Shown one piece after another: positions 1-62,697 of a stretch of DNA of 64,000 nucleotides. The notes beneath the pieces are model-generated. The model was not told the origin of the DNA. It saw only the letters and a program-made list of their open reading frames with translations, and ran no database searches. Every line of letters begins with the position of its first letter. Position 1 is the first letter of the stretch. A program made the position numbers and the translations under genes. The stretch spans positions 47,451-111,450 of the forward strand of contig JAQGDQ010000693.1 of the NCBI GenBank assembly GCA_030141605.1. The letters are read 5' to 3'. The DNA is from Tubiluchus corallicola (lineage: Eukaryota > Animalia > Priapulida).

Positions 1-1640
1 ATCAGAAATTGAGTCGACTGAACTTCACATTGAGGTGCCTTCTGAAGTAATGTCAGTAGATTTTGAGCTTAGCAAAATTACAGAAATAGAAACTGCTGAA
101 ATCGATATTGCACCTGAACATGAAATGGGAACAGAAATTGATGCTGTTGACCTAGTCCACGAGATTGCTGACACAAAAAGTGACAAACTTCCAGACGTTG
201 CTGTTCTTGATGTTGAACTTGTGAAGCCATCAGAATATGAAGTTCCTAAGCTCACAGAAGCTGTTAGTATTGATGTTCAACTAGAAAAGCCATCAGAACA
301 AGACATGCTTCCTGCTGAGGTTAATATAGAAGCTCCACCTGGAATGACAGCAGAGGATGTTGAGCGTTCTACAGAAATTGTTGGTACTGATGTTCACCTT
401 GAAGAACCAGTAGAATCAGACATGCATCCAACTGAACTTCACATTGAGGTGCCTTCTGAAGTAACGTCAGTAGATATTGAGCCTAGCAAAATTGCAGAAA
501 TAGAAACTGCTGATATCAATATTGCACCTGAACATGAATTGGGAACAGAAATTGACATTGTTGATCTAGAGCAAGAGGTATCACCATATCCTTCTGCTGC
601 TGAGCTTGAAATTGAGAAGTTGCCTGATTTACAAACTGCTGACACTAAAAGTGACAAACTTCCAGAAGTTGCTGTTCTTGATGTTGAACTTATGAAGCCA
701 CCAGAATTAGAAGCTCCTAAGCTCACAGAAGCTGTTAGTATTGATGTTCAACTAGAAAAGCCATCAGAACAAGACATGTTTCCTGCTGAGGTTAATATAG
801 AGGCTCCACCTGGAATGACAGCAGAGGATGTTGAGCGTTCTACAGAAATTGTTGGTACTGATGTTCACCTTGAAGAACCAGTAGAATCAGAAATGCATCC
901 AACTGAACTTCACATTGAGGTGCCTTCTGAAGTAACGTCAGTAGATATTGAGCCTAGCAAAATTACAGAAATAGAAACTGCTGAAATCGATATTGCACCT
1001 GAACATGAATTGGGAACAGAAATTGACATTGTTGATCTAGAGCAAGAGGTATCACCATATCCTTCTGCTGCTGATCTTGAAATTGAGAAGCTGCCTGATT
1101 TACAAACTGCTGACACTAAAAGTGACAAACTTCCAGAAGTTGCTGTTCTTGATGTTGAACTTATGAAGCCACCAGAATTAGAAGCTCCTAAGCTCACAGA
1201 AGCTGTTAGTATTGATGTTCAACTAGAAAAGCCGTCAGAACAAGACATGTTTCCTGCTGAGGTTAATATAGAGGCTCCACCTGGAATGACAGCAGAGGAT
1301 GTTGAGCGTTCTACAGAAATTGTTTGTACTGATGTTCACCTTGAAGAACCAGTAGAATCAGAAATGGAGTCAACTGAACTTCACATTGAGGTGCCTTCTG
1401 AAGTAACGTCAGTAGATATTGAGCCTAGCAAAATTACAGAAATAGAAACTGCTGAAATCGATGTTGCACCTGAACATGAATTGGGAACAGAAATTGACAT
1501 TGTTGATCTAGAGCAAGAGGTATCACTATATCCTTCTGCTGCTGATCTTGAAATTGAGAAGCTGCCTGATTTACAAACTGCTGACACTAAAAGTGACAAA
1601 CTTCCAAAAGTTGGTGTTCTTGATGTTATGAAGCCGTCAG
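1..1640 (+). repeat. Coding tandem repeat, 471-bp (157-aa) unit, ~3.5 copies visible
   Basis: Equivalent positions at 25, 439, 910 and 1381; the first unit is 57 nt shorter; copies nearly identical. Confidence 0.95.
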
Positions 1641-39412: not shown

Positions 39413-40681
39413 TCACTCGATGACATTAAATGTTACTCCTCCCTTATTCAGTCTATCGATTAATCCGGTGCGAGCAAAGACAGCACCTGGTGTAAATACT
39501 CCACCACCTGGAGGCAGGTTATTTGCTTCTTCGATTAATGTAATTGCTGCTGCTACCATGCATATTGGAGTAGCTGCATAACCAACTTCTGGTCCTTTGA
39601 CAACAGTGTGGATCTTGGCTTTTGGTTCATCTGTGTGCTGTTGATCGGGATCATCAATCTTGGTAGAATATCCCTGGCCAAAGAACTGCATATTGAATGA
39701 AGCGCCCTCAATTTGTTCTCTGGTTGGTCCTTCATGACTGACATAACCGAATGTGAACAAGCGTGGAAATCTTTCCAACAGCGCTCTGCCAAGCCTAAAC
39801 TGTGCAAGAAAAGCAAAAATTGGAAAAACAATCATCATCATGGCTAACCCAAAAGTGGATGATATTCGAACGAATGGGCTCAGTTGTACTGGTCTTGCTT
39901 TATGATGCTCATAATTATATCGCTGTGTCCGCATGCCTATGGAACGATCAGAACCCATGAAAGGGATACACCAGTCATTTCCAACTTGCTCCTCACGAAA
40001 TAATTTTGGACGCTTTGGTGCCTTGTGTGCCGGTTTCGGAAGAGGTGTAGGAAACAATTTCCTCCTCAACTTCAACAGCTCGCCAGAGTAGGCAAATCCA
40101 TAAATTGCAGATTGATAGGTTGCAAAATGTATGACCGAGCCTTTTGGTCCAGATTTAATTTGCAAAAAACTTTCAATGGAATTCAAGTCACCTTTGAATT
40201 TATCAGTGGTAAATGTAACTCCCAAGTCAAAAGGAATGCTGTCAAAACCACATGCTCCAACCACATAGCAACCAGCCTCCTTTGCTTTATCATGATACTT
40301 CAGCTGCATATTTTCTAGAAACTGCGGCTCACCGCTTATGTCCAAGTAGTGTGTTCCAGTGTCTACGCATGCCTTCACAACTGCTTCACCAAAAAACCTG
40401 TAGGGCCCAACACAGTTCAAGACAATTTCTGTAGCTGTGCACATTGATAAAATAGATTTTTCATCATTCACATCAGCAATTAATACAGGTATCTGAGTCA
40501 GATCTCTCTGCACAGCGTCAGTGGCTTGTTGTAGGACATTTTTAAGCTTATTTTCATTTCGCCCTGCTATGGCCCATTTTAGGTTGACATTAGTACCTCT
40601 GGTGTGCCTGGCCAATTCCTCAACAACAAATTGTCCAGTGAAGCCGGAAGCACCAAAAATAATAATGTCATATTTCTCCAT
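39413..40681 (-). CDS. SCCPDH: Saccharopine dehydrogenase-like oxidoreductase, 422 aa, intronless CDS
   Basis: MEKYDIIIFGASGFTG Rossmann motif, WAIAGRN, LNCVGPYRFFGE, YLDISGE, CGFDSIP, GPEVGY, GGVFTPGA; 5'UTR acceptor TTTTTATTTAG at ~40742; AATAAA (-) at 39266-39271. Confidence 0.95.
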   Translation of the reverse strand: MEKYDIIIFGASGFTGQFVVEELARHTRGTNVNLKWAIAGRNENKLKNVLQQATDAVQRDLTQIPVLIADVNDEKSILSMCTATEIVLNCVGPYRFFGEAVVKACVDTGTHYLDISGEPQFLENMQLKYHDKAKEAGCYVVGACGFDSIPFDLGVTFTTDKFKGDLNSIESFLQIKSGPKGSVIHFATYQSAIYGFAYSGELLKLRRKLFPTPLPKPAHKAPKRPKLFREEQVGNDWCIPFMGSDRSIGMRTQRYNYEHHKARPVQLSPFVRISSTFGLAMMMIVFPIFAFLAQFRLGRALLERFPRLFTFGYVSHEGPTREQIEGASFNMQFFGQGYSTKIDDPDQQHTDEPKAKIHTVVKGPEVGYAATPICMVAAAITLIEEANNLPPGGGVFTPGAVFARTGLIDRLNKGGVTFNVIE

Positions 40682-43674: not shown

Positions 43675-45891
43675 AAGATAAGATAATATTTATTTTCATC
43701 GGTATGATATAAAACAGTACATATTTGTAAAACATGAGCTTAAAGCTCGTAAACCGATATCAAACATAATGTATATGAGCGATAACATGGTAATAATATG
43801 TACTTCTTAAAATCTTTTGGATGCCACCAGAGGTATTGGTACAAGAAAAATTTATAACTACATGATGACAGTAAAAATTTGAGACAGTAAAATTTTAGGC
43901 AGTAACATTTTCTAAAATTTACACAAAAAGCTATCTAGGTCAATAAAAAAATTTCCTGCCAACACATTCAGCATTTAATTATGACTTAACAAAATTGGGA
44001 AGTTCGCTGAATTTACAAATGGCACATTTACATGATACACCAGTCCATGAGTTAATTAGACGTTTAAATTCAAAGATTCCCCAAGATTTTCGGCCATTCT
44101 GAGACAGTTTGATAATTCATTCCACAATGTGGCTCCGTAATTGACTAGTTTCAGAATTTTTACAGGAATATTGTCAAGGCCAGTCGCCTTTTTGTTACTA
44201 ATGGCACTGAGGTACTTATTTACCTGATCCAGTGAAACAGGCTTGAAATCAAAATTTTCAGTGTCTTTCAAGTTTTCTCTATTTTTCAGAACACTTGGAT
44301 GATTCTGAATCTCGTCCTCTGAAAGTTCTCTACCGATGTCCTTTGCTACTTTAGAGAAATGATCATTGAGCAAATCACAGACTAACTTAGGGTCAGATAC
44401 GACAGAATAATTTTCCAGGAGGCATATATCTTTCCCAGATTTTGAATTTTTACTCAAGAAAGGTTTGATGGTTGGCCAAAAGTCCTTTGATTTCAGCCCC
44501 CCGGTACACCTTTCAATAAAATAGTTTGTAATGGCCTGCCTTTTCAAGGCAGTGACCTTGTTTCGTTGAACATGATATTTGTTCCAATTTCGTTTAGTTC
44601 TTTGCCTTTCCCAAATGCGTTTCAGATTGTTCTTGTAGTTTAGTTCCTTTCTTAATTTCCCGTTCATGAATGGTGCCTTTTGCCGTTTCAGTTTTCTTTC
44701 CTTGACTGGAATGTGCTGGTTCACAATGTCAGTTAGCAACTTTGTGGTCATCCATCATGCATCGTCTATATCATCGAATATTGATGCAACATGGAAAGGG
44801 CCAGACATGACTTCATGGACCAGTTCATCCTGATCAAGGTTTTTGTAGCACCTGTATTTGGCTGTTCCATTTGGCTTCGGTTTCAAGTAAGTTTTCATTA
44901 CACTGAAAACCTGCTTGTGGACATCACTTAATCCAGTATCACAGACAAGAGTTTGGGCAAAAGAGTTTGGTCTGTTGGTTAATACTAAGTCAATAAGAGA
45001 TGGTTCAAAACGTTTGGTAAAACAGGTGGGTTCTTTGACTAGATTTGTGGGATCAAAAATATCACAAAGTTCGACAAGGGAACCACTTTTTTCTGGTCTC
45101 AATAGATCGAAGTTAAAGTCCCCGACCAGTGCTATGTTATCGTAGAATGTTAATACTTTGTCAAGAGATTTAGTCATATCACTTGTGAAGTTTGTGTCAC
45201 TAAGAGACGGAGGCTTATACGATCCTACAAGCAGCCACTTCTTGTCACCGAGTTAGAGTTCAATATTTACAGCTTCCACTTGTTCTGGCTCAGTTTCTTT
45301 CCTTCTTCTGGATGGGATGTCTGACCTAACATAGGCCATAACCCCACCTCCATCACGGTTACGATCATTCCTGAACAATTGATAGCCATCAACTTTGAAC
45401 TGGGCATCTAAGAAAGAATCGTCAAGTTTGGTCTCACCAATCACCGGTACATATACAAGTCTCTCATATAACATCTCAGTAGCTATGATGTACTTAGTTT
45501 GCATACTGTTGATGTTAATGTAAGCAGTTGTCACATTCTTTGGATATGCTTTACGCAGTAACTTTAATTCATCCAAATAATGTCCCTCATCTTCACGTTC
45601 TGGTTCACAATTATGACATAAAAACTCAAGGGAGGCATAGGCAACATGAGCCTGGAAAGTCTCATTATCCATACCGATACATCTGCAGTGCAACCACATA
45701 TCACATTTGTCACACTGGACTCCTTTCCTCACTCCTTTTCCACATATCCCACAGGGGCAGCTTACTGTCTGCGCTTTTTTAGACCCCTTAGGTGGCCCAG
45801 GGTTTAACTCTAGGTCTCCTGATAACAGAAGTGATAAAACGAGGAAAAGTTTGAGTGACTTCACTTTGCGTTGACGCGTCCATGATTGCAT
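43675..45891 (-). mobile_element. Decayed, internally deleted non-LTR retrotransposon (CR1/L2/Crack group): 2A-like peptide, PHD finger, AP endonuclease, RT stump, 3' end
   Basis: GDLELNPGP; CGIC..CDKCDMWLHCRC..FLCHNC; ETKLD, RNDR..GGGV, GDFN, PTC..SLIDL, SDVH; KATGLDNIP; YGATLWNEL; frameshifts between the three ORFs; AATAAA plus TATCT-type tail near 43675-43695. Confidence 0.92.
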
Positions 45892-45940
45892 TTTCTCAAT
45901 GGTGGACGGGGTTGAAACTTAGTTCTGTGGTTACTCTAAG

Positions 45941-46095
45941 ATTCTTTTATTTTATCACATGTATAATAAATTATTCAATGTGTATTGACGTTTTCAGTTA
46001 TTATTATTTAATAAACAAGGACAACAGATGCTGCCAGAATGATTAATGGCTCAAATCATGACCAATTGTCCTACTTCAGCTAGTGTCCTCCCAAC
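45941..46095. mobile_element. Partial copy of the 42767-43530 MITE family (right arm)
   Basis: Aligns by eye to 43300-43410 and ends in TGTCCTACTTCAGCTAGTG..CCCAACA. Confidence 0.75.
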
Positions 46096-46988
46096 ACTCC
46101 TATTCCGAAGACATCTCCTGCAACTTCGTGCCATGATTTAAGACCTATTTCTTTAACATCAGTTGTTGCCCAAATGCTTTAAGTCCATTATATGAAATAA
46201 GGTATTTCTATTTCTTGCCAGTTCTAAGTGTATCTGCAAATACCAGCATGACTCCTTACCAAATCACTCTGTTATAACTAATTTACTCTCTGGCTTAAAT
46301 GAATAGACTAAATTTTTTGATGATCCATCCTTACCTGGTATTGATATTTTGTACTTATACTTTAGAAAAGCTTTTGACTCCATGCATGTAAGAGAGCTAC
46401 TGCTAAAGATGGAGTTCTTATGAATCCGAGGTAATTTCTTAAAATGGTTTGAATTTTTTCTTAACTCATCGTAGACAATGAGATGTTATGAATGGTATAA
46501 CTACAAACTAGCAACCAGTAGGTAATGGAATCCCCCAAGGTACCCCTAGTGCCCTTTTTGCTCGCTTATTTTTATAAATGATAGTACTAATTGTGTGTCT
46601 CCTGCTGCAAACACCCTTTTATTTGTAGATGATCTTAAGCCCTATTGCTCAGTCTGGGGTGACTTAGACCAATTTATTTTACAAAATGATCTCAATGAAA
46701 TTGAAAAATGTGTAGTGAATGGTTGGTGCAACTTAAGAGAAGTAAATGTTGCTCATTACGTGTGCGGAATAAATCAAACACACCATATTATATCAGTGAT
46801 GGAGCTATAGACGAGAAATCTGTTGTAAGTGATTTAGGCATCTACATATCCAATATCCAAAGTGGAACACCCATGTTAATCGTATAATAGCTCAGGCAAA
46901 TCTTCAAATTGGTATGATCAAATGCTGTGTCATTTCAAGATCAGCTAATGTTATAGTCCCTCTATATAAAGCAGTTGTTCGTCCTATC
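46096..46988 (+). mobile_element. Decayed CR1-group LINE RT region (continues after the solo LTR to ~47400)
   Basis: PIPK..DLRPISLTSVV, FRKAFD, GIPQG, FVDDLK, LYKAVVRPIL; many stops and frameshifts. Confidence 0.85.
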
Positions 46989-47330
46989 TGTTGTGGAGAT
47001 CCACTAGAATACTAGAATGTTCTATAGTATAATAGAACCAATCTTCTTACCTTGTAGAAGATTCGAAAACTTTCTATATACGATGCGCGTAGTAGTTTCT
47101 GGTGTTGTCCATTTGCACTGATATATAAGGCGGAGCTGGCCGCTCAAGTTTATTCTCATATTCTCAGATACACTTTCTCGTTTTCACGTTTCCAGATTAT
47201 CACTTGACTGTGTATATTTTGCGTTCCTTCATACTTTGTGTTGTGGAATTCCCACACAATAAACTAGTTTAATTTGACGACGTGTTTTCCTGTTTTCTCT
47301 ACGACCCGTCCAAGAGAAAGAAACACAACA
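46989..47330 (+). mobile_element. Solo LTR, 342 bp
   Basis: TGTTGTG...CACAACA termini, perfect 5-bp TSD CTATC (46984-46988, 47331-47335), TATATAAG at ~47122, AATAAA at 47258. Confidence 0.9.
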
Positions 47331-48490
47331 CTATCTTAACCTTAACCTAATCTTAATCTGATAAATATAGAGTAATGCAATATAGAGTTTAATAAACTAC
47401 GCTGTGTACAGTTATTAAATTATTTTATTAAATTGGGGTTCAAACCTAGTTAGAATTGTGATTATCTTGATTATCACTATGTGTCAATGAATAATGACTA
47501 ATGAGTCTTCAAAATTAAGCAACCTAAGAATTCCCATGAATGAACCCATAATTATTGAGTTGTTTGTATTTTAACTGAAACCAAACCTATCTGAAACAAA
47601 TCAGGTTAGTCTTTATAATGCAAAATTTAGCTTTTTACTGACAAAGACAAAAAGATGGGAAATGAACTGAACAAGCCATACAATTGGCAAATTGCATTGA
47701 GAATGTCACAAAAAATATGGCCTTAAAAATATAAGTAACTTCTAATTTTTCTCAAAAAAAACAATGTAGTAGTAATTTTATTATGGCACTATGTGCACTA
47801 ACTTCAATGGAAATACAGCAGTCACTTAATAAAACCACCGCGGGGCCAGCAATGTGTGGTCTTAATACATTGCAGATTTATTTGTAGCTGCTTGCTGCGA
47901 GCGTATGTATTTGGCAAAGTACTGTATGTAAATGTTTCAGTTTAGTTTACCTTAGTTTATTCTATTTGCCATAACAAAAATATTGTGAAATGATTACAGA
48001 ATTAAAAAGAAAACAAGAATGTAAATAATAAAGTTGATTAATAAATTATTGGGGCTGTCCAAAAAAACTTGTATAGTCAAGCCCAATATGGCAAACAGAA
48101 GAGAAAACTGTAGGTGCAATAATAAAAGGTGGTTCCTGGGAGGATGAGAAGTATGAAAAGTGAAATGATATGAAGATGTAATATGAAAATGAGAATAAGA
48201 AATTTAGGTTCGCATGAGAATGACATAAGAATGTAATAATTGTATGTAAATCGGCAAGGCAGTCACAGTCGTGAGAGGAATCAGATTTTGTCCACTCGCG
48301 TACACTCTTTTCTTCTACTTCTTTTACGTTTTTACTTATTATTATGGAGTATAGTCCATTTTTATTGTTCTGTGAGTGTAATGAAACATTACAGATTATT
48401 AATGTCTAGATTATGGTCCATAATGAAGCATTTGAGGCCTTTTTTATATTTGAAAATATTTTGCTCTGATTTTACATGATCAGGGAGATA

Positions 48491-49853
48491 TAGTCATTTG
48501 CAAAAGTATCTGACCACCCCTCAGAAAACAGCATTTATTAGGAAAATATGATTTTATGGAAACATAAAATTCTTTATTGTTGTCAAATCTTGGAAAAATT
48601 AACACAGCGTGTTCGAATTCGTATTCTTATTATATTTAAGAGTCATATTGAAGATATTTCAGTATTTTGTGTGCCCTCCATGAGCATCGATGACTGCTTG
48701 CAGTCGGTGAGGCATACTAGCTGTAAGTGATGCGCAATAGTCTTTCTTGATTTCTTTCACCCACACATCTCTGATCGCGCCAACTAGTGCTGGGGCGCTT
48801 GGAGGCCATTTTTCATCTACTAAATCCTTCATTTGAGACCACAGATTCTCAATTGCATTTAAATCTGGACTATTGCCTGGCCAATCCAAGACCTTGACGT
48901 GATTTTTCATCAAAAATTCCTTCACAAGCTTTAATCAGTTGCAGGGAGCACCGTCCTGCATGAAAATAGTGATTTTGTGGATTGGCATATGCAAAGTTAG
49001 CTTATCCCTCAGTAACTCATATTTTAGTCCATTCATGGTGGTCCCAGGCATTAAATAAATATAGTCCAGCGGTACCATTTGTGCTCATGGCACCCCATAT
49101 CAACTGACTCAGTGACTGTTTCATGGTTGAAGCGGTGTATTTTTCGTTGAACCGTTTGTCGTCGGGTCTACGGACATGATTTTTCCGAACTACGAACTGT
49201 TGTAAAGTTGATTCATCAGAAAAAAGCACTTTGCCCCAGTCTTCGACAGTCCAGTGCTTATGCTTTTTGGAGAAGTCCAATTTCTTCTTTTTCATCAAAG
49301 CTGTCAGTCGTGGCTTTTTAGCGGGTTTGTACGACTTTAGCCCGTATTCTTTGCTGAGTCTATGCAGACACTAACATTAGTACCTTTTCTGAGGAGCTGG
49401 GCATGAATTTTTTGTAGGAACTCATTGGAGATCACGCTGCGATGCGTTTGATGGGAGTTGTTTTGCGCAGCCTACCACTTTTCTTCCGATTGCCATAAAG
49501 TCCTTCCTGATTGAATTTTTGTATCGCTCTTTGAACAGATGATTTAGAGACACTTTATTGTTTCGATATTTCATGCTGTTTCATCCATTTTTGTGAAGTG
49601 CAACAATCTGGGCACCTTTTACTTCTGTCAGCTACAGATTTTTGCTCATTTTTGGTAATCCAAAAAATCGAAAAAGTAATCTAAAAGCACGACAAACTGA
49701 AAATTAATACGAGAAACGATGCTGGAAACGTTATTTAGACAATGAATGTGGCATACAAGAAAGCTGATGCATTCACAATCACGGCTGATGCAATGAATAG
49801 GCAGGGTTGCCAAATTGGCATATTTTTGAAGGTGGTCCAAATTAATGGCCCAG
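48491..49853 (-). mobile_element. Tc1-family DNA transposon with pseudogenised transposase
   Basis: WTVEDWGKVLFSDES, FMQDGAPC, WPGNSPDLNAIENLW, SMPHRLQAVIDAHGGHTKY; stops and frameshifts; degenerate ends sharing GACCACC. Confidence 0.92.
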
Positions 49854-50775
49854 TAAAAGAAATGAAGTGCTTAGCAGCATTCGTACAGACATATGGAAGA
49901 AAGTATTGATTAAATCATGTGTTGTGAAATCTTACATTTGGTTTGATAGGATTTTTGAAGAATTTTCGTAATAATTTGCTATTTGCTTTATACTTAAAAA
50001 TCGCTATATGTTAAAACTCTCTGTTATCTATAGACAAGATATTACTTTGTTTGAAGATAGTGTTAAATACTGGAGTGAGTTTATTTAATCCAAAATATAA
50101 ACGAAGAAATTTTCTTTGAATACCTAATTAATATAGTATGTCACACATATATGTACAGGCTAATATATGTGCTTACATCACCTTTATTAACATTGGTTCT
50201 GTAAAAACATATTTATTTATTGAATGGCTGTCAATTTTACCTGCCATTCATTTTTGTAATCAAGGCATGCTTTTGCGAGACACCCCTAAGTCCCTGTCGC
50301 TTCCCGCTGGCTACAGGGTTGCGGCCTTTTGAATTTGTCTAATTACTCTAATTCCACCTATGCATCTAACACCGTGTTCTTCCATTCACCTGTCATAATT
50401 TAACGAGTTATGTGCGAAAAACCTTGCTTATAGGCTCACGCAGACATAGGGCAACCAAGATACTCCTATTCAAGTGTATAACAATGATTCAAATTCATTT
50501 AACAGATTAAAGTCTGGCAACTGTGTACGCAGAGTGCTTATGATGAAACAATCAATTCTTTCAGCGTGACAGACTAGGAAGAAGTGAATCTTGGAAACGG
50601 GTTTTAGATTTCTGCTGCGTATCTTAAAAAATACCCAAACTACCAGTTTTTTTGTTTTGCTATTGCTATTGCTGGTGATATATCGTGGAACAAGCTGAGC
50701 ATTTCCCAGATTTGCTTACTTTCACATTTTAAATTTAATCTTTGAATTTACAATTTCAGGTTTCAGTTAGATGAT

Positions 50776-50781
50776 ATGGAG
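50776..50781 (+). CDS. THUMPD1: Proposed two-codon first coding segment (Met-Glu) of THUMPD1
   Basis: ATG GAG|GTATGG donor; splicing to AG|51479 is in frame with the THUMPD1 ORF. Confidence 0.5.
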
Positions 50782-50783
50782 GT

Positions 50784-51467
50784 ATGGCTCAGACTTCATA
50801 TGATCTTGATACTGAGGAAGGCATCAAAGAATATTTGAGAAATCTAGGTATTGAATACAGGTTCTCCTGTTACAGTGAGAAAAAACCAGATGGTTGCCAT
50901 CTGCTCGGCGATTATCTAGAGGCAGTAGACAAAGATTTTGAAAAAGCACAAAAAGTTTACAAAGATAATTGCGATAAGAACTTTTTTGGACATAGCTGTT
51001 GTAAGTTTGGAACATATCTAGTTCTCGGTAAAGGTGGTTTAAAGAAGGATATTGAACAGGCTTATAAGTATTTTACAGCAGGCTGTGAAAATTCTTCTGG
51101 AGTTGGTTGTTATCACGCTGGGTTGCTAATCAACAGTGGTGAAATTGGAGATAAAAAAGACAAGGTAACAGCAGCACAGCTGTTTGAGAAAGGTTGCGAA
51201 TTGGATAATCCTCAAAGCTGTTACCATATCAGTGGTCTCCTCCTTCAAGGCGGAGATATACCTCGTGACTTGAAGAGAGCTTTCAAATTTTCATTGAAAG
51301 CATGTGAGATGGACAATCCATATGCTTGTGCCAATGTGAGCATGATGTATAAGAAAGGAGATGGAGTGAAAGCAGATAAAGCTCTCTCAGAAAAGTATAA
51401 GAAAATTGCAGAAGAGCTCCAAGACGCTCACAAAAAAGAACAACGCAGATTGAAGTTAAACGAATAA
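50784..51467 (+). CDS. COA7: Cytochrome c oxidase assembly factor 7 (Sel1-like repeats), 227 aa, intronless
   Basis: IKEYLRNLGIEYRFSCYSEKKPDGCHLLGDYLEAV, Cys-rich SEL1 repeats, YACANVSMMYKKGDGV; upstream acceptor TTTCAG at 50759. Confidence 0.95.
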   Translation: MAQTSYDLDTEEGIKEYLRNLGIEYRFSCYSEKKPDGCHLLGDYLEAVDKDFEKAQKVYKDNCDKNFFGHSCCKFGTYLVLGKGGLKKDIEQAYKYFTAGCENSSGVGCYHAGLLINSGEIGDKKDKVTAAQLFEKGCELDNPQSCYHISGLLLQGGDIPRDLKRAFKFSLKACEMDNPYACANVSMMYKKGDGVKADKALSEKYKKIAEELQDAHKKEQRRLKLNE

Positions 51468-51478
51468 TTTCTCTTTAG

Positions 51479-52441
51479 TTGACTGCAGTTTCAAATAATA
51501 ACGTCATGGGAAAGCGAAGGAAAAATTATTATGCTAAGCCTGCAAAGAAAATTCGAAGAACGCAAAGGATATTGCAACCTGGAATGAAGGGAGTTCTTGT
51601 CACTTATAACAACCAACCAGATCGAGTCATCATGAAAGAGGTATTTAACGTGTTAAACGAATATGCCGACAAGTTATATGGCAATGAACTGACAGAAAGT
51701 GGAGCTAAAGATTCTTCCTCAAATAACGATATTGAAACAGAGCTTCAAAAAGAAGTAACTGATATTAAAAGTAGTACTAGTGAAGTAAAACGATTTGAGT
51801 GTGTTGAGAGCTTAGCCTCAAATTGCTTATTTTTTTCCACTTCTTTGCCTGATCCTACCGAATTGGTGCAAAACATATTTGCTGATGTTCTAGACACGAA
51901 ACTGCAAAAGTCGCGATTTATAAGCAGAATGCTTCCGATTAGAGCAACTTGTAAAGCTTATTTCAGTGATATTAAGAAAACAGCTGATCAGTTGTTTGAT
52001 GATATATTTGCAACAAAACTACTAGAAGGTAAAACATTTATGGTTCTTTACAAAGCGAGAAACAATAATTCTGCTCCTGCTAAGATGGACGTTATAAAAA
52101 CTTTGGCCGACTTGATTGTTGAAAAGAATCCTGCTCATAGAGTCAATTTAATGGACCCAGATTTTACCGTTCTAGTAGAAATTATGCAAAAAATTTGTTG
52201 CTTAGGTGTGGTGGAAAACTATACTAAATTCAAGAAGTATAATTTAACAAGTCTGTGCAGTGTATTTAACACTGCAAGTGAAGCAAGTACTGTTCCTGCT
52301 GTTAGCACAGTAACCACAAATATTGCATCCGAGTGTGAAAGTGAGGAAAACTCTGTTAAAAACGAATGTCTTTCACAAGTTTATCCTAACATCAGTGAGC
52401 TTGTCCAACTTGACACTAAAAGCGAAAATGTAAAAACCTGA
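51479..52441 (+). CDS. THUMPD1: THUMP domain-containing protein 1 (tRNA acetylation adaptor, Tan1-like); first internal ATG at 51506
   Basis: GKRRK N-terminus, LQPGMKGVLVTYN, LNEYADKLYG, DIETELQKEV, SRFISRMLPI..TCKA, YKARNN, HRVNLMDPD..VLVEI, KFKKYNL. Confidence 0.93.
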   Translation: MTAVSNNNVMGKRRKNYYAKPAKKIRRTQRILQPGMKGVLVTYNNQPDRVIMKEVFNVLNEYADKLYGNELTESGAKDSSSNNDIETELQKEVTDIKSSTSEVKRFECVESLASNCLFFSTSLPDPTELVQNIFADVLDTKLQKSRFISRMLPIRATCKAYFSDIKKTADQLFDDIFATKLLEGKTFMVLYKARNNNSAPAKMDVIKTLADLIVEKNPAHRVNLMDPDFTVLVEIMQKICCLGVVENYTKFKKYNLTSLCSVFNTASEASTVPAVSTVTTNIASECESEENSVKNECLSQVYPNISELVQLDTKSENVKT

Positions 52442-52581
52442 GTTAAATTTTTTCTAATGTAAATTATCCATCTTCATACTTTCTGACTCATTGTGTTTAT
52501 GTCTTTGCCTTGCTGAGTTTGAAAAATTTTGCAGGTGAAACAAACTTGCAAAATTTTCTCAGTAGACCAAGTCGGTTTGAT

Positions 52582-53230
52582 CAGGGCCGTCTGTACCACT
52601 TGGCAAACCAGACAGTTGCCTTGGACACCAAATTTTGTGGGGGCACCAAGTTCTAGAAGTAATTCTTTAATTTTTAAATTTTACTGGAATGCAGTAAAAT
52701 GCATAATTAAATTAAATGAATTTCCTGCATTATTTTCAAGCAGGGAAATGTATATGATTCATTTGTGATAACATGGATCTGCCTTACTGCAACAAACACT
52801 TCCACTTTTGCTTTAAATAGATTCCATAGATTTATGCCATTTCAGGCACATGCCATAGATGCGTTACACTACTTTTGCTCATAATTTCTATTGTATCTAA
52901 CCATACACTGAGCAGCAGAACACTTTCTTGCAATAGCATTTATCTAACTATGACATATAAACTTATAAGAAATTGAAACCTTCAGCCTTCAAGAATTAAT
53001 GTTGGAAATGAATGTAAAAAAGCTGGTGTACATTCGATTATTTGAACAGCAAAAAAGATTCATTAATGAAGTGTTTACAACCGGAGCATAGTTATGGTTG
53101 TACATTTTGTGAAAATAATGAAATGGAAATACTTGAAAAAGAGGAGTTGAGGATGTGTACATAAAGAGTATGTGTGTGTACGTGCTGCAGAAACTACAGA
53201 AATTTTGGTTGCTCCTCAGGGCCCAGATTG
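52582..53230. mobile_element. Decayed hAT-like MITE
   Basis: CAGGGCCGTC start with GGGGGCACC subterminal motif; right end degenerate. Confidence 0.35.
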
Positions 53231-53449
53231 AATGGTCTTATAAATTCAACTTCAAACTCAATCAATACCAAGCTGTTATTGAAAGTTAATTAATATGCTA
53301 TTCTGCATATTTAAGCCTAACACCATTAGGCACCATAGCCAGGGGCATATTTACCAATGGCTTAATGAGGCTGTAGTATAGAGCAGCAAATTTTTAGGGT
53401 GCCATATTATAGGGGATTGTTATCCAGGGTTTTTTTTTAAATTATTCTT

Positions 53450-53790
53450 ACCATGACCTTTAACCTTAGTTTTAATGTGCGAGTTGTAGAAGTCCATGTA
53501 TTTATCCTGGAACATTTCCATGGCATCATTAACTTCTTGAGTGCACAAGACTTCATTCCAAGAGACATTAGTCAAAGCATCTGTAAAAGTGGCTTTAATA
53601 TTTTCAGGATAAAGAATACTCAGGAAGGTGATCCGTCATGTCAGTTAGTTACGTGCAATAAAAGCATGGTCGATACTGTTTATAAAAATATTATCAATTA
53701 GAGTGGACGTAAATTCAGTTATTCTTGTAGGGATTGTATCATTGGAAATACATGGGTGGCAAGCATGTGTGTTGCAGGAGAATTACCCAG
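53450..53790 (-). mobile_element. LINE endonuclease/linker fragment
   Basis: Minus strand reads PTRITEFTSTLIDNIF and VSWNEVL..VNDAMEMF. Confidence 0.75.
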
Positions 53791-53924
53791 TCGACAGTAG
53801 ATACAACCAACGATAGTTTTTTCCCTGATTCGTTAATTCAACAAAAATACATTCTAAGTCATCATCACAAACCATTAGATAATTGCGAATGAAATAATAA
53901 ACATGATTGCTAATCAAAAATCTC

Positions 53925-54024
53925 TAGTGTCCTACATGGGCTGCTCATGTACGACACTACTTTTAGCACATGGGTTTTACTGGAAATGTCCTACTTGGGC
54001 TAGTGGGTTACTCGGCGCCCTACA
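53925..54024. mobile_element. Right-end fragment of the 42767-43530 MITE family
   Basis: GTGTCCTACATGGGCTGCTCATGTACGACAC and TGTCCTACTTGGGCTAGTGGGTTACTCGGCGCCCTACA. Confidence 0.75.
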
Positions 54025-55084
54025 GTGGGACAGGCCCAACCCCCTGGCTTGTACGCCTATATGAATGTACTCAAGAGGCACAACAGTCACACCAAGGTGG
54101 AACTGATTTCGCCTGACACATTTTTGAGCTGAATGAGCACAAACCAGCCATAGAAAAGAGAGACAGGGAAAGTGAAGAAAGATAATAAATGAATATAAAC
54201 GAGCAAAAACGTTAAAGAAATAAAAATAACAGGTTATGATTATGTGTGCAAGCTGTGAAACATAATATGAATATACCAATGCAGAATCAAAAACAAAATA
54301 TATTTTATTAATGCAGATAGTACTAGTGATAAGCTTTATATGTACTTATACCTAAATATATGTTTCCGTATGTCCATGGACACTCATATACATACATCTA
54401 CAATCTACATACACGTAAACAGAAAAGGCAAGATGTCATAATAAACAGTATAATTTATCGATGCCGTAAATGTAGAGTGACGTGACATGCATGTTATCAT
54501 GATAGTAACACAGCATGATATGTATATGTTTATGATATATGCTGTAGTAAAACTTTCCGTACCAACATCGTGTGTAGCGTAGTCGTGAAAAATCCTTGCA
54601 ACAAATCGTACGTGAATCAAAATTTGTCGCACAACTGTCATGCGCAAGTTTCTTCTACTGCTCAACGCAAACGGCCCAGATTTGAAAGGTGAAAAACGCT
54701 TGAAAATATCATTTAAATCATAACTGAGAAGTTATTGTCAAGAATCAAGATAATTGAAGGCACGGAACTACTGATATAAATTTTGTTTTTCTGCGGTTTA
54801 AGTTGTCGTTTGTGTTGATAAAACGATTTTCTAAAAGTGGACGTCGTCAACTCGGCTTTTACTGTTTTAGTTTTAATACTTACTAGTTTTTTAATAGGTT
54901 ACACTTTATAGGGGGGATACTTCAGTAACGTTTCCAATACAAATCATAAGATTTATAGAATAAAAACAATAATTAGGTGCTTGAGTTTGTCAATGAAATT
55001 TTATGAGGTGTGAGTTTGAAGAAAAACTCGTGCTTCATTATGATTTACTGAAAACATTGCCGTTTACCGCATCTAGCCTATATA

Positions 55085-55429
55085 CAGTGTTCCCTCACTT
55101 ATCGCGGGTGTTCCGTTCCAGGCCCACCCGCGATAAGTGAATTTCCGCGAAGTAGGGACGCTATATATATTTTAGTAGTTATAGTATACATTATTTTATT
55201 TTTAAGTCTTTATAAACCCTCCTCACACTCTTATACATAACCTATACATGCAAAATTCGTCAGATCTATACATTACTGTACAATACGTACTATGCATGTG
55301 CAAAAATACTTTAGGTGGAGTACCACGAACAGCAAAAATACTGCGATCAATATTTACATTAATATTTTTGAAAACCCGCGAAACAGCGAGTCCATGATAA
55401 ACGAACCACGAAGTAGCGAGGGAACACTG
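55085..55429. mobile_element. pogo/Tigger-like MITE
   Basis: TA|CAGTGTTCCCTC ... GAGGGAACACTG TIRs; internal hairpin CACTTATCGCGGGTG..CACCCGCGATAAGTG. Confidence 0.85.
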
Positions 55430-55519
55430 TTCCTCAATTGCACTACTACAATGCCCTAAATTTGCGAAGAAAATGTGTGGTGTATGGCCAGTTCAAATAT
55501 GGCACTGGTGATTACTTAC

Positions 55520-56150
55520 CATAACGGTGAGCACGTTGTGAAATTTTTCGTGTAACAAAACAGTTATCCGCACATAGATGGTAGAAGATTCATTGGGCCG
55601 TTTGGCACCCTTTGTGGATGGATATTTGCTGAAAAACCTGTGCTCTGCCTCCAATCATACCTCCAAGGTATTAATAATGCATAAATATTGCATAGTGCAT
55701 AAATATTTGGCTAGTGCATTTTTGAAACCGTGTATTGTGTGTAGTCCTATAACTTCTTCCGATAAGAAATTCCATAGATATGTTTCAGCATTTGAGAAGC
55801 CATGCTTGTATCGCTCGGTGTTAGCTCTGTGCTTGTAAAGTTAAAGTGAATGACTTCTGGTGCAAATATCACTTAAAGTGAAGAGTTTTCTGATTTATCT
55901 CGGTGAGTCCATCTAAGATCTTGGGCAACTTGATCAGTCCACGTTGTTTACAAGAAGATAATCGATGGAGTCCAAGATGTAGTTTCCCAGCATGTGATAG
56001 ACTGTCTAGCCCTAGGATCATGTTGACTGCTCCTTCTTGCACTCATACTAGGATGCCGATGTCCTTCTGAACGTATGTGTCCCAAACTTGACTTGCATAG
56101 TCTAGCTGAGGTCTGATGATAGATATCACATAAGATGACCTTGAGTTGAT
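55520..56150 (-). mobile_element. CR1 LINE 3' fragment
   Basis: Minus strand reads IRPQLDYASQVWDTYVQKDI..VQ, typical of the ORF2 C-terminus; decayed. Confidence 0.75.
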
Positions 56151-57776
56151 TGTTTTTTAATATAAGTGCAAGAAGTTGATACTTATGGATGGTTCATAGG
56201 TTAAAATGGTTAAAATAGTCTGCATTTTAATAGGGCAGTGTTTGCATGCTGGCAGTAATTTAACTGTCAAATATCTATGAATGAAATGGTGGAAGATACC
56301 TGTAATGTTTACTTTCTAATAAATACTACAAAAATTAGAAGCTATGTTTTAATACTGGTATCGTTGCTGGGTATGTTTTGCAGCGAAGGGCCATACAGCA
56401 CAAAAACACAAAAAGTTTGTCTTCTAAAATATCTATTTTATTCGTATTTTCATGACTTATGTTTTATGTATTTTCATTAGCAATACAGTTGCTATCTTCA
56501 AACATTATTTCAGTTATTGTTACACACTCACCTAGGAATTAATTAGTAGTTTATAAGCATACCAGGCACACATGGAGTTAAGTGATTTAAAACTGTGATG
56601 CTTAGCAAGATGAAACTTTGTTACTTATGTTAGATATTGTTCCTTAAACTTTCTTAGAACATATTAAGAAACAAGCCGTTGATTTCGTATGGCACTTGCA
56701 ACAACTTGAAAACAATTATTCTGCAGACTATCTCACCCATCTAGGCACTTCTTATGCCCGATGTTGCTGTTACTAACTGAACAAAATTCTTTTGAGTGTC
56801 ATAAAGTAATTAAACTGTGAAGTTTTTAAAACGCACTTGACTCGTAAGTACTGGTTCGTAACTAGGTGGTGGCAACTATATTTGAAGCCAACCACAAATC
56901 ATCGAGTCAGCAAGATAACACTTTTAGTTTAAACTGTTATGAAACTTAACTAACAGTAATGTTAATTTAATATAATATACTGAAATTTTAGTACTGCAGA
57001 TTGGCGGGATCTGGAACGACAGCTGCACTACTGCTAAAATCAATATATCTTATCTTCATAACAGCAGGCCTGTTTACGGAATGAGATCGCTACAATGTCA
57101 GATACTGCACGTGCACGTATAATTATTCATGGACGTTTTGGCATTGTGAAGATTTTGAATACAATGGAGTATTTAGGGACAAATTGCAGTGTATGCACGC
57201 GAATGAAAAAATATTAAAGTTAGAATTACGTTGTAACTTTATTCAGTATTAGAACTTGGAACAGTTTTGTCTTTTTTGCTAATGATGGGTTGAAAACATA
57301 TAAACTTTCTTCTATTAAAATTTTAAATGAAAATTTCTGTTCCTTTGCCAGGAGTAATATCCTATGGACTATAGCCTCAAAGATTTTCTAGCTCTGCTAC
57401 AGGCCTTTAGCCCAGGTCTAGTTTGTTAACTGTTGAATGATTTGAATCCATTCCATATGATGATAGACCAGTTTCTTGTTTGTAATCTTGAGCGTTAAGT
57501 TGCTGGTTAACAGCTCATTGAGCTCAGTGCTTGGGTGTCTGCACAGTCTGGCCTCTGATATCAGTGATTTTACCGATGCAGTCTGGAATTAGAAAGAAAG
57601 ACTCTACTGCTCACCCATTAATTAATATCTCTCTTGTACGCTGACAGCTGGGTTTTCACACGTTCACTTTAGTATTTTTCTTTCTTACAATAGCATTTTA
57701 TATTGAGAAAATAGTACTATTCATTTTGCTTTTTAGGCATACAGTTTAGCAATAAAGCTAATAAGTAAACAGACAC

Positions 57777-60700
57777 ATGGCTGATACTCCTGAATCGCAA
57801 AGGTACCGATTATTAACTGACATAAAGGTTAGTAATCTCATTTTTTAAAATTATTTTTCATTTACTTTTGTTTGATTAAATTTGTGAAATACCGTAAACT
57901 TTGTATGTATGTTAGTGTAAAAAGACATGCCATTCAACATAAAGAAGTTTTTGAAGTACCTTATGACAATGACATTCAGTAATTGTGGAAATTTAACACA
58001 TACACACAGTAGACTTATATAAACTTTATTAAGGCACATTTAATAACCTTTCATTATTTTTTTACTAAAATTTAATTTATTAATTTCTTATTACTACCTA
58101 CTTTATAATACTTTATTCTACGTTCGAAACAAGTTCCACCTGTTGCCTGTTTGCTTGTCCTTGTCACAAGTTTTTACATAACTTCGGAAGACTTTCTTCT
58201 TAAAGATATTTTCTTCTTGAACATATACTACTTAGAGAGAGTCCTACAATTATCCAGTTTTTAGGTACTGTGCAAAATCGATTTTTTGTGGGTATTGAGT
58301 TACTAATTTTAAAATTTGTTTATTAGGATAAATTTGAAAAATGTCAGGAGCTGCAGTCACGTGCAGGAAGCGGAATTACTGAGTCAACCTTGCAAACTCG
58401 GGAACGACTGCACGAGCTTCATCTTGAGGAGAAAAACATACTGATCCGCAATTTAGAGTCATCAGTTGAGGAATTACAGCAGCTTCTGTTAGCCAAGGAC
58501 AAAAAGAAAGAAAAACGTAAATTTAAAGCTTGTTTTGGTTTCTTATATTAATGCATTTTAACAAGTTTGCTATAAATATATATATTATAAAATTACGTGT
58601 GACATTTCTTTTTTGGTTTTGCCATTCTGTACTTGTGCAATTCTGGCAAGATAGTCAGACAGAAAATGCAAAACTACATACATGCATTTGGCATTGTCTT
58701 GACCCAGTTTTCATTTAACCATTTTAATGAAATTTTAGTTCCTTGTGTGATTAGGTGGACTTACAACGAAAGATCAGTTTTAACTCTATCGGACATTTTA
58801 ATGTGGTTACAAACACTTGTGTTAACAGGAGCTATGCAGCAGATTTTTGCTACACGTTATCAAAATAATGCACTCATATCTCAGCTTGCCGGTCAAAAGC
58901 CGGGAGACGTCGGTCTGAATTTGCTGATTGTCTTTTTTTTCCGATACTAAACTAATACAGTAGGCGCCATGTATTAGACTCACGGTAATGTAGAATCAAT
59001 CACCTAATTGTCTCAAAAACGTCTAGTTTTTGCTCCTATGCAAAAGTTTATAAAAATTGTCGGAGTCAAATAATTGACTATACACATGGTTACGCTAATC
59101 TAATGATATAAACAAAGTGACGGCTTGCCATCTAGCTGTCCGCTCGCGAAACAACATAACTTTGTCCGCGGTATGCGGGACTTTTCAACAGTCCAGATTT
59201 TGTCCGATTCTTCCGATATCCGTCAAAGCGAGGTCCAGCAATAGAGACATGAGTGTATTATGAAAACTACTGTTTATAATTTTGCACTATTTTGTTTGTG
59301 TTAAAATATTTGTGGTTTATTTATGACAGGCGGCCCAGGGAGACCAGCCACACCCAAGCCAAAAGAGAGTATTAAATTGCTGTCAAATCAAGTATCGGCT
59401 CTGCAGAAAGATTTGAAAAGTGCACAGCAGCGGATACTTGATCTGGAGCAGAAGAATGTCGAGTTAGCCATCAGTTCCTCCAAGCCAGAAGAACAGTTAC
59501 TAGAAACGTCGTTTGACAAAGACTGTGTAAGTTACCAATTTTTTTCTCAGCCGTAACTTGTACTATTTTAAGAATACGTATTTTTTATCTCACAACAAAG
59601 TCCTATTTATTCCAATCCTCAAAAACTATCATCCAAGCATCATTTTCTTTGCATTAGACACGATCAGTTCTTCACCAATAGTATGAGCTTTTTTGTTTTT
59701 GTGATTCGCAAAGAAACATCACAAGAGACTTCCTGTGCCTATTCATTAGACTGATAAAATCGCCTGCTCTACCAAAGCGAACACCTCTCTCAAACAAGAC
59801 AATTTCCCTTCAAAAAAAAGTGTGATCAGGAGCTTCATATGCCACATGCTTCGATTGAAGACATCATTCCAACTTGTTATGTTTCAAACATTCGGTTGAG
59901 GTCATTTCATAACAAAGTACACCTTGAGGAACTAATGGTAAATTCATGAACTCCTTTTTTTTGTAATGGCAGTTCGTGCCTTAACAAAATTAAGTCCTGG
60001 TACAATGAACTCATCCCAATAATAAGACTAGGAGTAATCACTGTTGGAGTTGAATTCCTGGCTGAAATTTAAGCTGATTACAATTTATGAGACATGCAAT
60101 TAAGCATGAAGGTTACAATGTGAGAAACAAAGAACAAATGAATTTACCTCTCAGGATATTATAGGATAATTGCAAAATGGGTATATGTTTGTTTTGGCAT
60201 TCTACTTAGCTGTGTAGTTCAAGGCCCTGGGGCATGCTAAACCCGCATATGAACTGCTATTGCTGAAATCATTACTTTTTGGATTTTTCCAGATAGGCAT
60301 GGCCTGGGTTTGGGAATCACATGGCCATAAAGAGTTTGAATTTTTTACATGAATTATTGATTTAAAGTATATCTAGTAATTGATTCGTGTTTGGTCATAG
60401 TACGATCAATGTAGTGATACTTTCTAAAACATATATTTCTTGAATATTTTCCTTTTAATTTTATTATATCCATAAACTAAACTTATTTTTAGGTTTTAGG
60501 ACGTGAAAACACAGTGCTGAACATTCAACAGCGTGTACTTGCAGCTGACAACGAAAAATTGCGAGATGACTTGCAAGAGATGAAGCAAAGGTACCAGGCC
60601 TCCTTGTTAAAAAGTGAAAGGTTGCAGTCGCAACTTGAGTTTCAGTGTGAATTAATTGACACACTGAAATCATTACAACAGAATATTATTGAAGTTTTAG

Positions 60701-61494
60701 ACCAACAAGACAATGTGCTCATTAAGACAGATTGTACAACAATGATAGTCGAGTCTCAATTTAATGATGCTGAATCATTGCAGAAAGAAAATTCTCATAT
60801 CTGCAAGAAAATCTTGTGTCTGGCTCAAGAAAAAACTCGTTTAGAATCTGAAAATAATGCGGCAAAGTCTGAGCTTATAATGTTAACTGATAAAAGCACG
60901 AAATTTGGACAAGAAAACCAAAAGCTTTCTGATAAAGTACGGCAACTATCTGAAGAAGTTGTGTCATTAACAACAGAAAATGAGGACATCAATAGTAGAC
61001 TTAAACTCCAAATTGATGAAAATGCTCGCTTAGTTAATGTTCATTCACAGAAACAAAAAGAATTGATGTCAAAAGTGGAATCCTTGCAGTCAGAAAAAGA
61101 CAGTGTGAGTAAAACATTAAAAGGTTTGGGACTGATTCTTGAAAAAGAGCAGATCGATCATTCGAAGAAAGAACAATTGTGGAAGCAAGAAATAGCCGAA
61201 GTTTCAAAAAGAGAAACAGTTTTGCAGTCGCAAGTGTCCCATCTGGCAGAGAAACTTGCAGAACAACTGTCGAAAAACACAGAATTAAATAAGGTACTGG
61301 AAGAAACAACAAGAGAATGGCAACAGCAGAAAGCGCAGCTAGAAAAAGAAGAAGCTGAGTTGGAGGAACAGAAACAACTATTCAATCGATTGACTGAAGC
61401 AGCTCAGAATGTTTTGCAGGATAGGGTAATGTTGGAGGAACTAGTGTGCAATGCTACTACCCAACTAGGTGCTATAAGGAATAAGGAAGCAGAG
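57777..61494 (+). CDS. Uncharacterised long coiled-coil protein; exons 57777-57827, 58327-58516, 59330-59526, 60493-61494; 3' end unresolved
   Basis: Phase-consistent GT-AG exons (0, 1, 0, 0); E/K/Q/L heptad composition; 1002-nt open exon ending GAG|GTATTG (read-through would stop at 61530); the start codon is tentative. Confidence 0.78.
58866..59260. mobile_element. Intronic MITE
   Basis: Inverted ends TAATGCACTCATATCTC / GAGACATGAGTGTATTA. Confidence 0.65.
60493..61494 (+). CDS. Coiled-coil gene large exon
   Basis: TTTTTAG acceptor, 334 codons open. Confidence 0.85.
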
Positions 61495-61756
61495 GTATTG
61501 CTATGCTATATGCGTAAAAAAGATTGTTAAACAGTGTTGCACTAGCTTGGTATCATAAAGGTTTTACAAAACAGCCTTGTAAAATAGCATTTTACTAAAA
61601 ATTCATCACATTACGCATGGTAGGCTCTATTTAAACCTATAAGCCACTCTTCTTTTTGTCACTTTTTTGAAATAGCATATGAAAAAGCTTTTGAATTTTA
61701 ATATACCATTTGTCTTTGCTATAGATAAATGATGCTTAAATGATGATTTTAATTAA

Positions 61757-62410: not shown

Positions 62411-62697
62411 CTGGGCACTCCTAGCAACCAGGCCCCTCATCAGGGGCCGCATTCCCTTCGAAGGGCCCCTGTGACGATTACAACATAGTGATTTTTATAA
62501 TCTGTATAAAACACGGAATAATTTCATGTACATAATAACAGTTTCGTGTACAACCTGGGCACTCCTAGCAACCAGGCCCCTCATCAGGGGCCGCATTCCC
62601 TTCGAAGGGCCCCTGTGACGATTACAACATAGTGATTTTTATAATCTGTATAAAACACGGAATAATTTCATGTACATAATAACAGTTTCGTGTACAA
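62411..62697. repeat. Exact tandem duplication, 144-bp period, 2 copies
   Basis: 62411-62553 equals 62555-62697. Confidence 0.95.

What the first reader, a model, noticed from the sequence alone, without database searches (positions are those of the whole stretch)
50760..52441. A whole gene shaped as an intron: COA7 CDS fills a GT-AG intron of THUMPD1 (candidate intron-retention switch between two unrelated proteins)
Seen: 50776 reads ATG GAG|GT ATG GCT. The donor-like GAG|GTATGG (the same intronic hexamer as the nesprin donor at 30268) overlaps the COA7 start codon (50784). The COA7 stop (51465-51467) is followed immediately by TTTCTCTTTAG, a polypyrimidine tract plus AG ending at 51478. Excising 50782-51478 (697 nt, of which 684 are COA7 CDS) gives ATG GAG TTG ACT GCA..., i.e. 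M-E-L-T-A-V-S-N-N-N-V-M-G-K-R-R-K, in frame with THUMPD1. Only 38 nt separate the COA7 stop from the next ATG (51506), with no AATAAA and no room for a promoter or 3'UTR. Inference: one pre-mRNA yields either a mitochondrial complex IV assembly factor (intron retained, THUMPD1 ORF as 3'UTR) or the tRNA ac4C adaptor (intron spliced). Established precedent for same-strand nesting: VAChT/unc-17 inside the first intron of ChAT/cha-1. A fit this tight, with the donor overlapping the start codon and the acceptor abutting the stop, is unusual, and I do not know of it for this gene pair. Alternatives: an SL trans-spliced operon using the 51478 acceptor, or direct splicing from a shared upstream 5'UTR exon.
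Basis: partly seen in the sequence, partly recalled or inferred. Interest (0 to 1): 0.9.

Follow-up and report, generated by a model that had tools for sequence, protein, structure and literature searches.

The report
Whole gene fitted inside an intron
In what is likely a priapulid worm, two unrelated intronless housekeeping genes lie only 38 bases apart and likely share one RNA, from which the whole first gene is predicted to be spliced out so that the second can be made; similar two-gene messages are known in flies, and no spliced RNA was seen here.

Summary
All coordinates are right. COA7 (50784-51467) and THUMPD1 (51506-52441) are intact, intronless and 38 nt apart, with no AATAAA. SCCPDH in the window groups with Priapulus (SH-aLRT 98). 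The donor over the COA7 start is strong: at or above 27 of 35 predicted local donors, chance about 0.1-0.3% given ATGG. The acceptor after the stop is mixed: nine pyrimidines plus AG is rare, but it ranks at the bottom of 34 local acceptors. A better acceptor (50759) lies just before COA7. Relatives suggest one transcription unit: an RNA-guessed contig runs unspliced from COA7 into THUMPD1, and both orthologs sit on 1839-nt contigs. No spliced junction was seen, and that relative carries 29 extra letters, probably in the spacer. Best reading (0.55): a dicistronic message whose splice variant removes the whole COA7 frame. FlyBase lists 11 dicistronic genes with a splice variant that disrupts the upstream frame, so the kind is known. 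New would be the exact fit, with the start codon forming part of the donor. Rivals: plain dicistronic or internal promoter (0.22), shared upstream exon (0.13), leader trans-splicing (0.08).

The parts
50740..50759 (+). Strong candidate 3' splice acceptor just upstream of COA7 (end of a 5'UTR intron, or an outron); weaker AGs at 50766 and 50770
   Evidence: 11.0 bits, at or above 32 of 34 predicted local acceptors; 21 of 34 in a smoothed model; upstream donors are only weak, 5.1-5.5 bits at 50474, 50584, 50675
50760..50781 (+). Candidate shared leader segment (22 nt if 50759 is used) holding two upstream ATGs, 50771 (weak context) and 50776 (strong context); both are out of frame with COA7, and 50776 is in frame with THUMPD1 after the proposed splice
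50779..50787 (+). Candidate 5' splice donor GAG|GTATGG, whose +3 to +5 letters are the COA7 start codon
   Evidence: 9.8 bits, at or above 27 of 35 predicted local donors; chance 0.13-0.33% given ATGG; GT before the start in 0 of 29 other animal COA7 loci with a readable start
50782..51478 (+). Predicted 697-nt GT-AG intron, 684 nt of which are the COA7 coding sequence
   Evidence: sequence only; no spliced contig seen
50784..51467 (+). COA7, 227 aa, intronless, full length
   Evidence: Sel1 repeats; 90% to P0016, 44-51% to the other aligned homologs, cysteines conserved
51468..51478 (+). Candidate compact acceptor: nine pyrimidines plus AG, directly after the COA7 stop
   Evidence: rare motif but bottom rank in position models because of purine-rich COA7 codons upstream and T at +1
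51479..51505 (+). 27-nt stop-free leader in frame with THUMPD1
   Evidence: stop-free by chance about 0.5
51506..52441 (+). THUMPD1, 311 aa, intronless, complete from its own strong-context ATG
   Evidence: THUMP domain; starts at the same place as P0001, P0002, P0003 and Lingula P0005
52706..52716 (+). Two overlapping ATTAAA, candidate shared poly(A) signal about 265 nt after the THUMPD1 stop
   Evidence: motif only; lies at the edge of repetitive DNA (depth)

Best explanation
COA7 and THUMPD1 likely form one transcription unit whose unspliced message would make COA7, while a predicted splice from the donor over the COA7 start codon to the acceptor after its stop would remove the whole COA7 frame and leave a message that makes THUMPD1. 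Shown: the two intact intronless genes, the 38-nt spacer, the motifs and the frame. Inferred: a shared promoter upstream of 50760, a shared 3' end near 52710, use of the splice. Rationale (inferred): 12 ATGs precede the THUMPD1 start on the unspliced message, so scanning could hardly reach it; the unspliced message has no junction downstream of the COA7 stop, so it would escape junction-dependent decay. Likely origin: two intronless copies came to lie in tandem, and because ATGG already supplies four letters of the common local donor GTATG, a GT just before the start codon was enough to create the donor.
For: Donor strength and position: at or above 27 of 35 predicted donors, 0 equal sites in 7.6 kb of coding DNA, chance 0.13-0.33% given ATGG; 7 of 35 local donors begin GTATG; 0 of 29 other COA7 starts have GT before ATG (several of these loci are near duplicates). 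Nine pyrimidines plus AG fill the space right after the stop (11 of 3595 minus-strand AGs). The strong upstream ATG 50776 is out of frame with COA7 but in frame with THUMPD1 after the splice. No AATAAA in 50700-53600. 12 ATGs before 51506. Adjacency in relatives: X2 record 9 bridges 51408-51702; P0016 and P0002 each have a longest contig of 1839 nt, inferred to be one contig. P0001 (85%) sits on a 1485-nt contig with no matching COA7 of 124 aa or more among the 120 listed of 197 hits, which fits a break at the acceptor but also fits chance. Precedent: 11 of 16 'splice variant' rows in FlyBase File S1 disrupt the 5' coding region.
Against: No spliced joint seen: none at 50781^51479 among 15 listed of 46 joints. 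The one RNA-guessed contig over the acceptor is unspliced at depth 43, and the inferred 1839-nt contig would be continuous over both sites, so the spliced form is not dominant in those samples if they are RNA. The acceptor ranks 0 of 34 and 1 of 34 in two local models and has no clear branch motif at the usual distance. X2 record 9 has 29 more letters than the window over 51408-51702; P0001, P0002 and P0016 show no indel there, so the extra letters probably lie in the spacer, which would loosen the stop-to-acceptor fit or shift the frame. Using both 50759 and 50782 implies a 22-nt exon, far below the 100-nt minimum among the exons used for the model. The splice models rest on unverified ab initio exons. 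The 11 added residues are not needed: homologs start at the same place as the 51506 ATG.
Confidence: 0.55

Rival explanations
1. Plain dicistronic locus without this splice: THUMPD1 is made by reinitiation or internal entry on the shared message, or from a second promoter inside COA7; the donor and acceptor are chance look-alikes.
For: Only unspliced contigs were seen. In Drosophila, monocistronic messages for the 3' gene usually come from an alternative promoter, and stop-to-start distances of -34 to 319 nt are normal (PMC4528330 section 6). An AG as good as 51478 by the smoothed model is expected in about 35-39% of 38-nt stretches. THUMPD1 has its own strong start context.
Against: Leaves the strong donor at the start codon and the strong out-of-frame ATG 8 nt before it unexplained. 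Reinitiation after a 227-codon frame is inefficient (established knowledge; the downstream frame of fly lemming gave no detectable protein in S2 cells, PMC3372440 passages).
Confidence: 0.22
2. A shared upstream non-coding exon splices either to 50759 (COA7 message) or straight to 51478 (THUMPD1 message); COA7 still lies in a THUMPD1 intron, but a longer one (804-1005 nt), and the 50782 donor is unused.
For: [quoted passage not shown]
Against: Upstream donors are weak (5.1-5.5 bits) and the nearby acceptor is far stronger than the distant one; the 9.8-bit donor would be chance.
Confidence: 0.13
3. Spliced-leader operon: a polycistronic pre-mRNA resolved by trans-splicing at 50760 and 51479.
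For: An acceptor-like site precedes each start; spacers this short are typical of tunicate operons (median 1-33 bp, PMC7986045 passages). X2 record 9 has 30 unaligned letters at its upstream end that I could not see.
Against: No Rfam match in the window. No title or abstract start among the 3 papers holding 'priapul' and 'spliced leader' or the 8 holding 'priapul' and 'polycistronic' concerns trans-splicing in priapulids (listings only). No room or signal for a COA7 3' end. A bridging contig at depth 43 argues against fast resolution if it is RNA. Does not explain the donor.
Confidence: 0.08

Closest known systems
Drosophila dicistronic loci with a splice variant that disrupts the 5' coding region (Muted/CG7071, Tim10, CG34317/CG7950, CG42455/vnc, CG42508/Xport, CG18624 and others; PMC4528330 section 6 read whole, File S1 rows seen)
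   Same: Two unrelated frames 5-52 nt apart (in the pairs named) on one message; in the four pairs whose partner row I saw, the upstream gene is made only from the dicistronic form; a splice frees the downstream gene; two rows are marked 'retained intron'. Fly pairs are enriched for mitochondrial import proteins and methyltransferases (PMC2276209 passages), a similar pairing of functions.
   Different: Here the predicted intron matches the whole 227-codon frame to within 2 and 11 nt and uses the start codon as part of the donor; File S1 does not give intron ends, so I cannot say whether any fly case is as exact. The fly cases are annotated from cDNA and RNA-seq; this one is not. File 1 of that paper's supplements could not be searched.
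Cholinergic locus unc-17/VAChT and cha-1/ChAT (shared exons: PMC11488851 passages; nesting in the first intron and separate 3' ends recalled)
   Same: One gene lies on the same strand inside an intron of another, under a shared promoter.
   Different: There the two products are functionally linked and the nested gene has its own 3' end; here the genes are unrelated, and the nested gene would be read from an intron-retaining message that runs on through the host gene.
Retroviral gag-pol versus env splicing (recalled, no call)
   Same: Unspliced RNA makes the upstream protein, and splicing out that frame makes the downstream protein.
   Different: Viral, with dedicated export elements for the unspliced RNA; here two ancient cellular genes and no such element was looked for.
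Vertebrate RPP14/HTD2 bicistronic mRNA (PMC4705651 passages) and fly lemming (PMC3372440 passages)
   Same: An RNA-processing protein and a mitochondrial protein on one message (RPP14/HTD2); an intronless locus with a 92-nt spacer (lemming).
   Different: The passages read describe no frame-sized intron; leaky scanning or reinitiation is assumed.

Membership tests
Dicistronic locus with 5'-CDS-disrupting splice variant (FlyBase class) | Two non-overlapping, unrelated, conserved frames in tandem a short distance apart | tested here: met
Dicistronic locus with 5'-CDS-disrupting splice variant (FlyBase class) | A processed mRNA that spans both frames | tested here: inconclusive
   X2 record 9 bridges both genes but the run is only guessed to be RNA and is a roughly 92% identical relative; 1839-nt contig inferred from equal lengths
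Dicistronic locus with 5'-CDS-disrupting splice variant (FlyBase class) | A spliced isoform that removes or breaks the upstream frame | tested here: inconclusive
   strong donor, mixed acceptor; no joint seen in two contig sets, one of them behaving as DNA
Cholinergic-type nested locus | Shared first exon with alternative acceptors | tested here: inconclusive
   acceptor 50759 strong, upstream donors weak; no transcript data
Cholinergic-type nested locus | Nested gene has its own poly(A) site inside the intron | tested here: not met
   only 11 nt between stop and acceptor, no AATAAA or ATTAAA there
SL trans-spliced operon | Short intercistronic distance with an acceptor before the downstream start | tested here: met
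   38 nt, AG at 51478
SL trans-spliced operon | Spliced-leader RNA gene and leader-bearing reads | not testable with these tools
   no whole genome held, no raw RNA reads listed; no Rfam match in this window only

The most novel reading that the evidence does not exclude
A complete, ancient 227-codon gene has become an alternative intron of its neighbour: its start codon is part of the 5' splice site and its stop codon bounds the pyrimidine tract, so one splicing decision sets the ratio of a mitochondrial assembly factor to a tRNA-acetylation adaptor, a retrovirus-like strategy built from two cellular housekeeping genes in a priapulid lineage.
Probability: 0.5. Interest if true: 0.65.

Novelty: new variant of a known kind. 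Interest (0 to 1): 0.48.

Why it matters
If true, it is the most compact form of a two-gene message resolved by cis-splicing, and shows a simple route by which animals without spliced leaders can solve the second-cistron problem: a start codon in ATGG context is two letters away from a GTATG donor. It predicts a searchable class (tight tandem pairs with GT before the first ATG and a pyrimidine-AG after the first stop) that annotation pipelines would fuse or drop. It is lineage-limited: 0 of 30 other animal COA7 loci showed THUMPD1 in the DNA held, and Owenia has the two genes on different scaffolds. No functional link between the two proteins is known to me, so regulation by the switch is conjecture.

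Tried and rejected
No whole genome is held. No RNA holder listed; this is no evidence on expression. Contigs of X1 (behaves as DNA of the same species) and X2 were laid on 44000-57700; X2 covers only 51408-51804 of the pair, and holes prove nothing. Metagenome scan with a COA7 alignment gave 30 loci from other animals; 0 of 30 hit THUMPD1 by tblastn, but many loci are 1-3 kb and some end in or just after COA7. The representative search found no close COA7 relative; 0 of 269 COA7-like proteins held a THUMPD1 part, so no fused form was seen; three longer ones scanned had only Sel1. Chaetognath origin was considered (PMC12460157 passages) and dropped after SCCPDH grouped with Priapulus (quick tree, 36 selected rows, no chaetognath, kinorhynch or loriciferan named row, so 'priapulid-like' is as far as it goes). 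U12 intron rejected: GTATGG is not the U12 donor (recalled). COA7 truncation or pseudogene rejected: full length, cysteines kept. Literature: 1 paper holds both COA7 and THUMPD1, on iPSC reprogramming (listing only); searches for priapulid bicistronic, polycistronic or leader reports and for a frame-sized retained intron listed nothing on this pair; listings only. Earlier scan notes: none for this genome or sequence.

Full report
Observation. Every coordinate in the finding holds: ATG at 50776, GAG|GTATGG with the COA7 ATG at 50784, TAA at 51465-51467, TTTCTCTTTAG to 51478, and a 697-nt cut that joins two codons to a 27-nt stop-free leader in frame with THUMPD1, giving 322 instead of 311 residues. 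The two frames are 227 and 311 aa with Sel1 and THUMP domains; named homologs call them COA7 and THUMPD1. Their roles in complex IV assembly and tRNA acetylation are recalled, apart from one hit named as TAN1-related. Both are intronless and full length. The spacer is 38 nt, and there is no AATAAA from 50700 to 53600; ATTAAA occurs at 51764, 52706 and 52711.

Organism. No genome is held. A third intronless gene, SCCPDH on the minus strand, has Priapulus caudatus as best named hit (59%, 581 bits; next named 523 bits) and groups with it at SH-aLRT 98 in a quick tree of 36 chosen rows. The window is thus likely from a priapulid or close relative, distant from Priapulus itself.

Are the splice signals more than chance? 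I predicted the nesprin exons ab initio, dropped the last two as uncertain, and built models from 35 donors and 34 acceptors. The donor at 50782 scores 9.8 bits, at or above 27 of 35 leave-one-out scores; no site as good lies in 7.6 kb of coding DNA, and 8 lie on the 64-kb minus strand. Because ATGG supplies four of its letters I conditioned on that: the chance is 0.13%, or 0.33% with a purine at -3. None of 29 other animal COA7 loci with a readable start has GT before it (1 of 30 had no start, several are near duplicates). The acceptor at 51478 is mixed: it is at or above 0 of 34 and 1 of 34 acceptors in two models, and an equal site is expected in over a third of 38-nt stretches; yet nine straight pyrimidines before AG occur at only 11 of 3595 minus-strand AGs and fill all the room left after the stop codon. 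A much stronger acceptor ends at 50759 (32 of 34), with only weak donors upstream. Two ATGs, 50771 and 50776, precede the COA7 start out of frame; 50776 has a strong context and falls in frame with THUMPD1 after the cut.

Relatives. No RNA holder was listed. Of two contig sets laid, X1 behaves as DNA of the same species. X2, guessed to be RNA and about 92% alike, gave 8 records, 2 in the pair. Record 9 (354 nt, depth 43) covers 51408-51702 without a skip, so it bridges the end of COA7, the acceptor and the start of THUMPD1. It has 324 letters for 295 window letters; since P0001, P0002 and P0016 show no indel in these codons, the 29 extra letters probably lie in the spacer (inference; I could not see the letters). 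Thirty letters of the record stay unaligned, by the 30-nt overlap with record 10 probably on the upstream side; unexplained. No joint at 50781^51479 is among the 15 listed of 46. A 90% COA7 (P0016) and an 84% THUMPD1 (P0002) each have a longest contig of 1839 nt, just enough for both frames, which I read as one contig. An 85% THUMPD1 (P0001) lies on a 1485-nt contig with no COA7 partner among 120 listed of 197 hits. Outside this lineage the pair is not seen: 0 of 30 loci, different scaffolds in Owenia, no fused protein in 269 COA7-like proteins.

Mechanism. One transcription unit is likely (about 0.85). On the unspliced message 12 ATGs precede the THUMPD1 start, so THUMPD1 needs another route. 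The strong, improbable donor at the COA7 start and the compact acceptor at its stop make the frame-sized intron the best single reading (0.55). Against it stand the unspliced contigs, the weak acceptor score, the probable change of spacer length and a 22-nt exon if 50759 is also used. Rivals are a plain dicistronic locus or internal promoter (0.22), a shared upstream exon with two acceptors (0.13), and leader trans-splicing (0.08); the first three can coexist.

Known kinds. FlyBase lists 159 dicistronic pairs and notes that some monocistronic forms come from splices that disrupt one frame (PMC4528330, section 6 read whole; passages). In its File S1, 11 of 16 'splice variant' rows disrupt the 5' frame, with unrelated partners as close as 5-52 nt, two marked 'retained intron' (search rows and part 5 of 6 seen; file 1 of the supplements not searchable). 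Fly pairs favour mitochondrial import proteins and methyltransferases (PMC2276209, passages). So the locus works like the fly class; membership is inconclusive until a junction is shown. No paper on this pair or on priapulid trans-splicing appeared in the listings; the library lacks most subscription papers.

Verdict. A real and unusual layout, probably a dicistronic unit resolved by cis-splicing; a new variant of a known kind, unproven at the RNA level. Interest 0.48, 0.65 if the exact intron is confirmed.

Noticed in passing
window 39413-40681 (-), upstream to 40969: SCCPDH is also intronless in its coding part (422 aa) with a likely 5'UTR intron (donor 40969 or 40958, acceptor 40742, 11.6 bits). 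Three intronless housekeeping genes beside an intron-rich nesprin suggest retroposed or intron-stripped copies in this lineage.
   Followed up: partly
run X2 record 9, window 51408: 30 letters of this RNA-guessed contig stay unaligned next to 51408, where the window reads TTGCAG (AG at 51410-51411, a poor acceptor): divergence, a cryptic junction or a leader; letters not shown.
   Followed up: partly
window 51455-51478: COA7 ends in LKLNE where most aligned homologs have F at the third place; these last codons and the stop codon are where a branch point would have to lie, and the stop itself reads TAAT 14 nt before the acceptor end.
   Followed up: partly
window 44056-45918 (-): Broken LINE-like element with a PHD finger and an endonuclease (both below Pfam cut-off).
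   Followed up: no
window 48659-49370 (-): Broken Tc1/mariner-type transposase (DDE_3 at cut-off, Tc3 HTH below it), about 1.4 kb upstream of COA7.
   Followed up: no
window 166-1627 (+): Nesprin exon with 3.1 copies of a 471-nt (157-codon) repeat at 97% identity.
   Followed up: no
window 62411-62697: Perfect tandem duplication of 144 nt; recent duplication or assembly artefact.
   Followed up: no
window 59330-61530 (+): Gene for a coiled-coil-looking protein with a 345-codon last frame and no Pfam match.
   Followed up: no
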